A DNA stretch of 64,000 bases from Eledone cirrhosa. Its lineage: Eukaryota. This document shows positions 12,001 to 16,100 of this stretch, in pieces. Every line of letters begins with the position of its first letter. Positions within the stretch are counted from its first letter, which is position 1. The notes under the pieces were generated by a model. It searched no databases, was not told where the DNA came from, and saw nothing but the letters and a program-made list of their open reading frames with translations. A program made the position numbers and the translations under genes. The stretch covers positions 218,116,001 through 218,180,000 of the forward strand of contig OZ024740.1 of assembly GCA_964016885.1 (NCBI GenBank), given 5' to 3'.

Positions 12001-13129
12001 GTTAGATTAGGGTTAGCTATTATCGTTAGGGTTAGGGTTAGGGTAAGCTGTTAGGGTTAGTGTTAGCTGTTAGGTTTAGGGTTAGGGTTATCTCTTAGGT
12101 TAGGGTTAGGGTTGGGTTAGGGTTAGGGTTAGGATTAGGGTTAGCTGCTAGGGTTAGGGTTAGGGTTAGGGTTAGGGTTAGGGTTAGATGTTAGGGTTAG
12201 GGTTAGATTCAGGTTTAGGGTTAGTTTTAATGTTAGGGTTAGCTGTTAGGGTTAGGGTTAATGTTAGGGTTAGGGTGTGTATTAGGGTTAGCTGTTAGGG
12301 TGTGTATTAGGGTTAGCTGTTAGGGTTAGGGTTAGGGTTAGGGTGTGTATAAGGGTTAGCTGTTAGGGTTAGGGTTAGGGTTACTGTTAGGGTTACGGTT
12401 AGGTTTAGGGTTAGGGTTAGTGTTAGGGTTAGTGTCAGGGTTAGTGTTAGGGTTAGCAGTTAGGGTTAGCTGTTAGGGTTAGGGTTAGGGTTAGGGTTAG
12501 GGTTAGGGTTAAGTTTAGGGTTCGGGTTAACTGTTAGGGTTATGGTTAGGGTTAGGTTTAAGTTTAGGATTAGCTGTTAGGGTTAGGGTTAGCTGTTAGC
12601 GTTAAGTTAAGGGTTAGGGTTAGTGTTAAGTTTAGGGTTAGTGTTAGGGTTAGGGTTAGGGTTAGGCTTATCTGTTAGGGTTAGGGTTAGGGTTAGGGTT
12701 AGGGTTAGCGTTAGGGTTAGAGTTAGGGTTAGGTTTAGGGTTAGGGTTCATGGTAGGGTTAGGTTTAGGTTTAGGTTTAGGGTTAGCTGTTAGGGTTAGG
12801 GTTAGGTTTAGGGTTAGCTGTTAGGGTTAGGGTTAGTGTTTGGGTTAGGGTTAGGGTTAGTTTTAGGGTTAGGGTTAGCTGTTAGGGTTAGGGTTAGGGT
12901 TAGGGTCACGGTTAGGCTTAGGGTTAGGGTTAGTGTTAGTGTTAGTGTTAGGGTTAGTGTTAGGCTTAGCTGTTAGGGTTAGGGTTAGGGTTAGGGTTAG
13001 GCGTAAGGTTAGGGCTAGGTTTAGGTTTAGGGTGTGTATTAGGGTTAGCTGTTAGGGTTAGTGTTAGGGTTAGCTGTTAGATTTAAGGTTAGGGTTAGGG
13101 TTAGGGTTAAAGTCAAGGTTAAGGTTAGG
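1..13129 (+). repeat. Degenerate telomeric-type (TTAGGG)n array with recurrent variants (TTAGCTG, TTAGTG, TTAGGT, TTAAGG, GGCGCAGGG, TTCGGG)
   Basis: Continuous TTAGGG hexamers with the G-rich strand on +; the TTAGCTG heptamer appears on most 60-bp lines. The array runs off the window start. Confidence 0.97.
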
Positions 13130-16100
13130 CTAAATCTAAGCTTAATCTCGCCTAAATCTAAGCTAAATCTAAGCTAAATCTACGATAATATAAGCTAAAT
13201 CTCACATAAATCTAAGCTAAATATGAGCTAAATCTCATCTAATTCTAATCTAACTATAAGCTAAATCTCACGTAAATCTAAGCTAAATCTAAGCTCAATC
13301 TCATCTAAATCTAAGCTAGATCTAAGCTAAATCTCACCTAAATCTGAGCTAAATATGAGCTAAATCTCACATAAATCTTAGCTAAATATAAGCTAAATCT
13401 CATCTAAATCTAAGCTAAATCTAAGCTAAATCTCACCTAAATCTAAGCTAAATATAAGCTAAATCTCACCTAAATCTAAGTTAAATATAGGTTCCATCTA
13501 AGATAAATCTCACCCAAATCTCAGATAAATCACACCTAAATCTAAGCTCAATATAAGCTAAATCTCACCTGAATCTAAGCTAAATCTAAGCTACATCTAA
13601 GATAAAAGTCACCTAAATTTAAGCTGAATATAAGCTAAATCTCGTCTAAATCTAAGCTAAAAATAAGATAAATCTCACATAAATCTAAGCTAAATCTCAC
13701 CTAAATTTCAGCTAAATGTAAGCTAAATCTCACATAAATCTAAGCTAAGTATAGGCTAAATATCACCTAAATCTAAGCCAAATCTAAGCTAAGCCTCACC
13801 TAAATCTAAGATAAATATAAGCTAAATCTCACGTAAATTTAAGCTAAATATAAGCTAAATCTCACCTAAATCTAAGCTAAATCTAAGCTAATTATAAGAA
13901 AAATCTTACCTAAATCTAAGCTAAATCTCACCTAAATCTTCGCAAATATAAGCTAAATGTCACCTAAATCTAAGCTAAATCTCACCTAAATCAAAGCTAA
14001 ATATAAGCTAAATCTCACCTAATTCTAAACTAAATATAAGCTAAATCTCACCTAATTCTAAGCTAAATATATGCTAAATCTCACTTAAATCTAAGCTAAA
14101 TCTCACCTAAATATAAGCTAAATCACACCGAAATCTAAGTTAAATGTAAGCTAAATCTCACCTAAATCTAAGCTAAATCTAAGCTAAAGCTCACCTAAAT
14201 CTAAGCTAAATCTCACCTAAATCTAAGATAAATCTCACTTAAATATATGCTAAATGTAAGTTAAATCTCACCTAAATCTAGGCTAAATCTAAGCTAAATC
14301 TCATCTAAATCTAAGCTAAATCTAAGCTAAATCTAAGCTAAATCTAAGCTAAATCTAAGCTAAATCTAAGATAAATCTCACTTAAATCTAAGATAAATTA
14401 CGCATAAATCTAAGCTAAATATAAGCTAAATCTCACCTAAATCTCAGCTAAATCTAAGATAAATCTCACCTAAATCTAAGCTAAATATAAGCTAAATATC
14501 ACCTAAATCTAAGCTAAATCTCACCTAAATCTAATCTAAATACGAGCTTAATCTCACCTAAATCTAAGTTAAATATAAGCTAAATCTCACCTGAATCTAA
14601 GCTAAATGTAAGCTAAATCTAAGCTAAATCTCACCTAAATCTAAGTTAAATCTAAGCTAAATATCACCTAAATCTAAGCTAAATCTAAGCTAAATCTGTC
14701 CTAAATCTAAGCTAAATATAAGCTAAATCTAAGGTAAATATAAGCTAAATCTCACCTAAATCTAAGCTAAATCTAAGCTAAATCTCACCTAAATTTAAAC
14801 TAAATGTAAGCTAAATCTCACCTAAATCTAAGCTAAATATAAGCTAAATCTCACCTGAATCTAAGCTAAATCTAAGCTAAATCTCACCCAAATCTAAGCT
14901 AAATCTAAGCTAAATCTAACCTAAATCTAAGCTAAATCTAAGCTAAGTCTGACATAAATCTAAGCTAAATATAAGCTAAATCTCACCTAAATCTAAGCTA
15001 AATCTAAGCTAATTATAAGCTAAATCTTACCCAAATCTAAGCTAAATCTAAGCTAAATCTCACCTAAATCTAAGCAAATATAAGCTAAATGTCAACTAAA
15101 TCTAAGCTAAATCTCATCTAAATCTAAGCTAAATATAAGCTAAATCTCACCTAATTCTAAGCTAAATATAAGCTAAATCTCACGTAAATCTAAGCTAAAT
15201 ATAAGCTAAATATAAGCTAAATCTCACCTAAATATAAGCTAAATATAAGTCAAATCTCACCTAAATCTAATCTAAATCTAAGCTAAATCTGACCTAAATC
15301 TAAGCTAAATATAAACTAAATCTAAGGTAAATATAAGCTAAATCCCACCTAAATCTAAGCTAAATCTAAGATAAATCTCACCTAAATTTAAGCTAAATGT
15401 AAGCTAAATCTCACCTAAATCTAAGCTAAATATAAGCTAAATCTCACCTGAATTAAAGCTAAATCTAAGCTAAATCTCACCTAAATCTAAGCTAAATCTA
15501 AGCTAAATCTAACCTAAATCTAAGGTAAATCTAAGCTAAGTCTCACCTAAATCTAAAATAAATATAAGCTAAATCTCACCTAAATCTAAGCAAATATCAG
15601 CTAAATGTCACCTAAATCTAAGCTAAATCTCACCTATATCTAAGCTAAATATAAGCTAAATCTCACGTAAATCTAACCTAAATATAAGCTAAATATAAGC
15701 TAAATCTCACCTAAATATAAGCGAAATCTAAGCTAAATCTCACCTAAATCTAAGCTAAATATGAGGTAAATCTCATTTAAATCTAAGCTATATCTCATAT
15801 AAATATAAGCTAAATATAAGTCAATTCTCACCTAAATCTAAGATAAATCTCACCGAAATCTAGGCTAAATCTAAGATAAATCTCACCTAAATCTAAGATA
15901 AATCACACCTAAATCTAAGCTAAATATAAGCTAAATCTCACCTAAATATAACCTAAAGCTAACCTGAATCTAAGCTAAATCTCACCTAAATCTAAGCTAA
16001 ATATGATCTAAATCTCACCTAAATCTAAGCTAAATCTCACATAAATATAAGCTAAATATAAGTTAAATCTCACATTAATCTAAGCTAAATCTTAACTAAA

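What the first reader, a model, noticed from the sequence alone, without database searches (positions are those of the whole stretch)
13080..13200. Telomeric array meets a telomere-like satellite in opposing orientation at a palindromic junction
Seen: the last unit reads TTAG-G-CTAA (13125-13133), an odd palindrome, with no spacer. The satellite minus strand is TTAGAT-TTAGC / TTAGAT-TTAGG, a 6+5 dimer of TTAG-based units, and shares TTAGC with the array's heptamer. The G-strand 3' end points into the satellite whichever way the contig is flipped, the reverse of a normal subtelomere-to-telomere layout. Established: inverted telomeric arrays mark end-to-end fusions (human 2q13). Inference: a fusion or fold-back scar, or a satellite cap added distal to an old telomere.
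Basis: partly seen in the sequence, partly recalled or inferred. Interest (0 to 1): 0.7.

Follow-up and report, generated by a model that had tools for sequence, protein, structure and literature searches.

The report
Telomere-like satellite meets unrelated satellite
A 300,000-base block of worn telomere-type repeats in the middle of a giant octopod chromosome runs straight into a common 11-letter repeat; the join is likely an ordinary boundary between two satellites rather than the point where two chromosomes fused, although such blocks cluster on chromosomes that were likely built by fusions.

Summary
The junction is as described: TTAGGCTAA at 13125-13133, no spacer, one copy in the genome. 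The interpretation mostly fails. The left side is the last 13 kb of a 300-kb array in mid-chromosome (49% along a 443-Mb scaffold), only 56% perfect TTAGGG and full of kb-scale duplications, whereas assembled chromosome ends are nearly pure. Its polarity is normal for its own left flank. The palindrome appears in 10-14% of random joins, and the right side is no fold-back (32% identity). The 11-mer sits at 11 sites; 0 of 14 other sequenced edges touch telomeric repeats. Six such telomere-like arrays exist; the four 3' ends seen join four different partners. Genes 4.6 Mb left and 60 Mb right map to the same Octopus chromosome. In favour of fusion: the scaffold combines at least three Octopus chromosomes, all six arrays lie on the four giant scaffolds (p about 0.025), and the layout resembles muntjac tandem-fusion sites. 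No close right-hand marker and no reads could be obtained. Verdict: a large interstitial telomeric satellite abutting a dispersed satellite; fusion point about 20%. The scan noted similar telomere-like satellites elsewhere in this genome, not this junction.

The parts
1..13129 (+). 3' end of a 300-kb degenerate TTAGGG array (C1:217,828,702-218,129,129): 56% TTAGGG, 7% TTAGCTG, 5% TTAGTG, 5% TTAGGT units; no rise in purity towards the junction
13125..13133 (.). TTAG-G-CTAA junction palindrome, arm 4 nt, chance level
13126..13131 (+). TAGGCT, a word present as a variant in both arrays (320 times in 213 kb of the array, 10 times in the satellite): possible microhomology at the join (inferred)
13130..21892 (+). 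11-mer satellite (CTAAATCTAAG 34%, CTAAATCTCAC 23%, CTAAATATAAG 14%), with a near-perfect internal duplication of 3.9-4.1 kb; one of 11 sites of this family
21893..22092 (.). 200-N scaffold gap: true length of the satellite and what follows it are unknown

Best explanation
The site is the boundary between a 300-kb interstitial array of degenerate TTAGGG repeats and a dispersed 11-mer satellite, likely made by an ordinary rearrangement between repeat blocks inside one ancestral chromosome segment rather than by the fusion of two chromosome ends. Shown: size, interstitial position, degeneracy, kb-scale duplications, five sister arrays with the same TTAGCTG variant, different partners at each 3' end seen, chance-level palindrome. 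Inferred: the family descends from telomeric DNA, was amplified in place by unequal exchange or replication slippage, and was spread to several sites during the reshuffling that built the giant chromosomes; the join used end-joining or ectopic recombination, possibly at the 6-nt TAGGCT word. It is predicted to be passive heterochromatin.
For: Array 56% perfect with 42% of its 150-mers repeated inside it, versus 89-99.6% perfect units and no heptamer at 5 assembled ends and 70% at a sixth. Sister arrays at C2:243.5 and 251.2, C3:151.0 and 184.7, C4:101.5 Mb; C1 and C2:251.2 share the unit spectrum but no 96-mer. The four 3' ends seen join the 11-mer, an rDNA spacer, another short-unit satellite and a retroelement-like tail. 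0 of 14 other 11-mer edges touch telomeric repeats. Palindrome in 10-14% of random joins; no fold-back. CDK4/6 at 213.26 Mb and a GPCR at 278.68 Mb both have orthologs on the same chromosome in Octopus bimaculoides (147,805,816 bp) and O. sinensis (164,836,235 bp).
Against: C1 holds genes from at least three O. bimaculoides chromosomes (110.5, 147.8, 199.9 Mb), so fusions did occur. 6 of 6 heptamer arrays and 9 of 10 placed 11-mer arrays lie on C1-C4, which are 54% of the assembly (p about 0.025 and 0.02; 0.09 if the C7 TTGGGG-type hits are counted). The right-hand marker is 60 Mb away; the closer one (inversin exon, 219.68 Mb) gave no octopus ortholog among the 120 listed of 510 hits. On C2 a same-chromosome marker pair spans 102 Mb, more than that O. 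bimaculoides chromosome (80.9 Mb), so blocks are interleaved and distant brackets can hide breaks. The 9.34-Mb block ending at the window gap begins at a gap inside another 11-mer array, so its orientation is not fixed by sequence. The 11-mer matches the telomere repeat at 8 of 11 positions (34 of 1,500 shuffles do as well), so the two may be distantly related.
Confidence: 0.6

Rival explanations
1. Muntjac-type head-to-tail tandem fusion site: the old telomere of one ancestral chromosome was joined to the end or pericentromeric satellite of another, then expanded and decayed; a later inversion or a flipped scaffold block explains why distant markers agree.
For: Flank - TTAGGG block - satellite order with outward G strand matches the seven muntjac sites (PMC2760882 passages). 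C1 is composite; arrays cluster on C1-C4; C7 ends in the 11-mer; another array abuts rDNA; the block 208,796,218-218,137,892 has gaps in or after 11-mer arrays at both ends; pairs on C2 and C3 point towards each other.
Against: Muntjac sites all join one satellite and show synteny breaks; here four 3' ends join four partners and bracketing markers agree. No special kinship between the window satellite and the 208.8-Mb arrays after length correction. No heptamer at six assembled ends.
Confidence: 0.22
2. Assembly artefact: two repeat arrays joined wrongly inside a contig.
For: The junction is single-copy, lies 8.8 kb from a gap, and no public run held it.
Against: No N from 217.916 Mb to the gap; the join is base-sharp between two different repeats and is not a self reverse complement; sister arrays also end sharply on unrelated DNA.
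Confidence: 0.08
3. The 11-mer is a telomere-derived cap that was added beyond an old telomere at a former chromosome end.
For: It is distal to the array's 3' end; 8 of 11 match to the telomere repeat; it forms the assembled end of C7 in the same orientation relative to the arm.
Against: 10 of 11 sites are away from the ends of chromosome-scale scaffolds or unplaced; at C7 it follows a 13-mer satellite, not telomeric repeats; none of the six assembled telomeric ends shows it in the 3-5 kb fetched.
Confidence: 0.07
4. Head-to-head telomere fusion (human 2q13 type) or a fold-back scar from breakage-fusion-bridge.
For: Opposed TTAG-rich strands and a palindromic join.
Against: No CCCTAA array on the right; 32% identity to the reverse complement; palindrome at chance level.
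Confidence: 0.03

Closest known systems
Heterochromatic interstitial telomeric sequences (het-ITS), e.g. Chinese hamster (review PMC6410037; passages of sections 2.1-2.3 seen)
   Same: Large internal block of telomeric repeats, amplified beyond the length of real telomeres, flanked by mobile elements and satellite DNA.
   Different: Here strongly degenerate with a shared 7-nt variant; centromeric or pericentromeric position is not established.
Indian muntjac tandem-fusion sites, (TTAGGG)n immediately next to satellite I (PMC2760882; passages seen)
   Same: One-directional TTAGGG block directly abutting a satellite, on giant chromosomes built from several ancestral ones.
   Different: Muntjac sites all join the same satellite and were required to show synteny breakage; here partners differ at each array and the markers obtained show no break.
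Human 2q13 fusion ITS (as described in PMC6410037 and PMC2760882 passages)
   Same: Opposed G-rich strands meeting at an internal site.
   Different: 2q13 is TTAGGG against CCCTAA; here the right side is a different 11-mer satellite found at 10 other sites.
Arabidopsis interstitial telomeric repeat domains (bioRxiv 10.64898/2026.05.10.723265; abstract and outline seen)
   Same: Very large degenerate telomeric domains that expand in place by block duplication and need not be fusion fossils.
   Different: An origin from the centromeric satellite was shown there; the centromere repeat here is unknown and no mosaic units were looked for.

Membership tests
het-ITS (large interstitial telomeric satellite) | Large block of telomeric repeats away from chromosome ends | tested here: met
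   300 kb at 49% of a 442.9-Mb scaffold
het-ITS (large interstitial telomeric satellite) | Amplified by duplication rather than telomerase synthesis | tested here: met
   56% perfect units, repeats at lags of 1.5-19 kb, 42% of 150-mers repeated
het-ITS (large interstitial telomeric satellite) | Same motif as the organism's true telomeres | tested here: met
   TTAGGG in outward polarity at 6 of 27 scaffold termini fetched
het-ITS (large interstitial telomeric satellite) | Heterochromatic, centromeric or pericentromeric location | not testable with these tools
   Needs CENP-A, H3K9me or FISH; only transposon domains were found in 148 of 183 ORFs scanned in the 200 kb right of the window
Head-to-head fusion ITS (2q13 type) | (TTAGGG)n facing (CCCTAA)n | tested here: not met
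   No CCCTAA array right of 13129
Fold-back inversion scar | Right side is the reverse complement of the left | tested here: not met
   32% identity over 300 nt
Muntjac-type tandem fusion site | Telomeric block immediately adjacent to a satellite | tested here: met
Muntjac-type tandem fusion site | The same satellite recurs at the other junctions | tested here: not met
   4 of 6 array 3' ends seen, four different partners; 0 of 14 other 11-mer edges telomeric
Muntjac-type tandem fusion site | Synteny break across the junction | tested here: inconclusive
   Markers at 213.26 and 278.68 Mb on one Octopus chromosome; close right marker failed; interleaving and a flippable block are possible
Muntjac-type tandem fusion site | The adjoining satellite is centromeric or pericentromeric | not testable with these tools
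   No chromatin or cytological data; 5 of 11 arrays end at a gap or scaffold end

The most novel reading that the evidence does not exclude
The six large TTAGCTG-bearing arrays are the buried telomeres of the ancestral chromosomes that were fused into four giant octopod chromosomes, and this junction is a base-resolved telomere-to-satellite tandem fusion point, giving a muntjac-like map of fusion scars in a cephalopod.
Probability: 0.2. Interest if true: 0.6.

Novelty: new member of a known kind. Interest (0 to 1): 0.3.

Why it matters
The junction alone is an ordinary satellite boundary. The wider pattern is of moderate use: an octopod with four giant composite chromosomes carries at least six 40-kb to megabase telomere-derived arrays, all internal and all on those chromosomes. 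Octopod karyotype reduction has been argued from gene synteny (bioRxiv 10.1101/2025.05.16.652989, passages seen; the words telomer- and centromer- do not occur in its main text). If the arrays mark breakpoints they would let fusion mechanism be read at base level; the coordinates here make that a direct test.

Tried and rejected
A gapped pattern for recurring telomere-to-11-mer joins found 0 matches but also missed this junction, so it is uninformative. A rare 31-mer shared only by the window satellite and the 208.8-Mb array suggested an inversion between them; after correcting for array length there was no special kinship, so that support was dropped. An element near the 5' ends of two arrays is a common repeat (11 of 201 loci). 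The C1:408.73-Mb hit is a lone 19-nt match, not an array. Gene hunting in 200 kb right of the window gave only transposon domains. The inversin exon at 219.68 Mb gave no octopus ortholog; 7 of 7 of this genome's own GPCR frames were absent from the exact look-up. Two C2 markers were dropped: 341.7 Mb (60% identity, possibly a paralog) and 216.7 Mb (only a cuttlefish cluster). Supplements searched for octopus gene positions gave nothing (0 hits in 3 files, 1 not readable; not readable; list only); unseen supplements may hold the needed gene order. Literature searches (0 papers) listed no report of interstitial telomeric arrays in cephalopods; the library lacks most subscription papers.

Full report
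Observation. Window 13125-13133 reads TTAGGCTAA; a TTAGGG-type array ends and an 11-mer satellite begins with no spacer. The 18-nt junction word occurs once in the genome. The window is G000:C1:218,116,001-218,180,000, and the junction lies 49% along a 442.9-Mb scaffold. The organism is an octopod: a C1 GPCR is about 90% identical to Octopus proteins and 87% to an Argonauta protein.

Left side. The array starts at C1:217,828,702, directly after an AT microsatellite, and is 300 kb long; I read 213 kb plus the first 11 kb, and pattern hits cover the 76 kb between. Of 31,754 units in the 213 kb, 56% are TTAGGG, 7.4% TTAGCTG, 5.3% TTAGTG and 4.6% TTAGGT; rare 40-mers repeat at lags of 1.5-19 kb, and 42% of 150-mers recur inside the array. 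Purity does not rise towards the junction. By contrast, 6 of 27 scaffold termini fetched carry outward TTAGGG: five are 89-99.6% perfect, one 70%, and none has the heptamer. TTAGGG is the reported cephalopod telomere motif (PMC13218726, passage). So this is an internal satellite of telomeric type, not a live telomere.

Right side. The 11-mer block is 8.8 kb and ends at a 200-N gap at 21893-22092. It mixes three monomers and holds a 3.9-4.1-kb duplication at 98-99.8% in its best 500-nt windows. A 44-nt pattern (66 hits) places the family at 11 sites: four on C1, three on C2, one each on C3 and C4, the last 9 kb of C7, and an unplaced contig. Of the 20 edges of the 10 other arrays, 14 were read, 4 end at a gap or scaffold end and 2 were not reached; 0 of 14 adjoin telomeric repeats. 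They join unique DNA or other satellites, and the family has inversions of its own at C1:208.79 Mb. Its likeness to the telomere repeat is 8 of 11, reached by 34 of 1,500 shuffles and 55 of 1,500 random 11-mers: suggestive, but weak in a genome with many short satellites.

The palindrome. In 20,000 random joins of these two arrays in this orientation, an arm of 4 or more arose in 9.6% (centre within 1 nt) to 13.7% (within 5 nt). The right side is 32% identical to the reverse complement of the left, so it is not a fold-back. TAGGCT at 13126-13131 is a variant word in both arrays, which allows but does not show a microhomology join.

Sister arrays. A 20-nt heptamer pattern has 1,963 forward and 474 reverse matches, more than this array and the first sister could explain (about 1,160 and 157). 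Further patterns located six large arrays in all: C1:217.83-218.13 (+), C2 around 243.5 (+; TTGGGG-type hits from 241.95 to 243.62 Mb, continuity not shown), C2:251.17-251.21 (-), C3:150.93-151.09 (+), C3: below 184.60 to at least 184.77 (-), and C4:101.49-101.58 (+). Two TTGGGG-type hits at C7:29.4 Mb were not fetched. C1 and C2:251.2 have nearly the same unit spectrum but share no 96-mer, which points to one family with separate local growth. Four of six 3' ends were read and join four different partners: the 11-mer here, the spacer of a truncated 5.8S-28S rDNA unit, another short-unit satellite, and a retroelement-like tail. The junction type therefore does not recur.

Synteny. Orthologs were placed by the length of the Octopus chromosome that carries them. 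On C1: 51.45 Mb maps to the 110.5-Mb O. bimaculoides chromosome; 213.26 Mb (CDK4/6 exon, 92% identical) and 278.68 Mb both map to the 147.8-Mb one (164.8 Mb in O. sinensis); 342.9 Mb maps to the 199.9-Mb one. C1 is thus composite, but the two markers that bracket the junction agree. The test is coarse. The right marker is 60 Mb away, and the close one at 219.68 Mb failed. On C2, markers at 207.9 and 309.7 Mb both map to an 80.9-Mb chromosome, which implies interleaved blocks. A gap inside the 11-mer array at C1:208,796,018 makes the 9.34-Mb block that ends at the window gap reversible on sequence alone, although the two arrays show no special kinship. Six of six heptamer arrays and nine of ten placed 11-mer arrays lie on C1-C4, 54% of the assembly (p about 0.025 and 0.02). 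Published work reports fusions reducing 30 to 28 chromosomes in Argonauta and further translocations in another octopod (bioRxiv 10.1101/2025.05.16.652989, passages).

Mechanism. Shown: a degenerate TTAGGG family at six internal sites, grown by block duplication, ending abruptly on whichever repeat lies next. Inferred: it descends from telomeric DNA, either an old end or a short insertion; pieces were spread and cut by rearrangements among repeat blocks; this boundary is one such cut, joined to a common satellite. The review PMC6410037 (passages) lists these routes for large interstitial telomeric blocks and notes flanking by satellites and mobile elements. An Arabidopsis preprint (abstract and outline) shows that such domains can arise and expand with no fusion. 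Two arrays here (C3:150.93, C4:101.49) start inside the same palindromic repeat in opposite orientations, which fits seeding or cutting within repeats. The best fusion model is not 2q13 but the Indian muntjac, where a one-directional TTAGGG block abuts satellite I (PMC2760882, passages); there the partner is constant and synteny breaks, and neither was found here.

Limits. No reads could be laid and no public run held the junction, so misassembly is judged unlikely only from internal evidence. Pattern searches may miss arrays with other unit orders. Earlier notes of this scan describe other telomere-like satellites in this genome and none near this window; they are unchecked and were not used as support.

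Verdict. Real feature, known kind (large interstitial telomeric satellite next to another satellite). Fold-back and head-to-head fusion are rejected; a tandem fusion point remains at about 20%. Interest 0.3.

Noticed in passing
G000:C2:251,154,650-251,166,406 (L083, L084): Truncated rDNA unit (5.8S and 28S, no 18S hit) whose 28S is interrupted by about 6 kb between model positions 2339 and 2391, possibly an rDNA-targeting retroelement (recalled, not tested); its 3' spacer abuts a telomere-like array.
   Followed up: partly
G000:C2:241.95-243.62 Mb: Hits of a TTGGGG-rich telomere-like pattern over 1.7 Mb; 40 kb read is continuous array. It points towards the C2:251.2 array, and a 7-mer satellite and the rDNA unit lie between them: a candidate centromeric region.
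   Followed up: partly
G000:C3:184.632 Mb (L206): Sharp switch from heptamer-type to TTGGGG-type repeats inside one array; TTGGGG is also the main variant at the assembled end of C6.
   Followed up: partly
G000:C1:208.726-208.823 Mb: Cluster of a 13-mer satellite, an AAAAT tract and the 11-mer, with a roughly 3.4-kb unit that contains an 11-mer inversion repeated several times, and a gap at 208,796,018.
   Followed up: partly
G000:C3:150.93 Mb and C4:101.486 Mb (L221, L219): Both arrays start inside the same repeated palindromic GCGCATGCGC-rich element, in opposite orientations.
   Followed up: partly
G000:C7:93,942,700-93,951,928 (L125): C7 ends in the 11-mer after a 13-mer satellite, while its other end is pure telomere.
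   Followed up: partly
G000:C1:217.800-217.809 Mb (L062) and 208.684-208.687 Mb (L169): A 309-bp tandem repeat 19 kb left of the array start; separately a 325-bp tandem repeat beside scrambled ankyrin-type frames.
   Followed up: no
window 22093-64000: Microsatellite-rich DNA whose long frames look like retroelement pieces (my reading, not scanned against families), plus an 8-mer TAGTGGTG array at 56540-58671.
   Followed up: no
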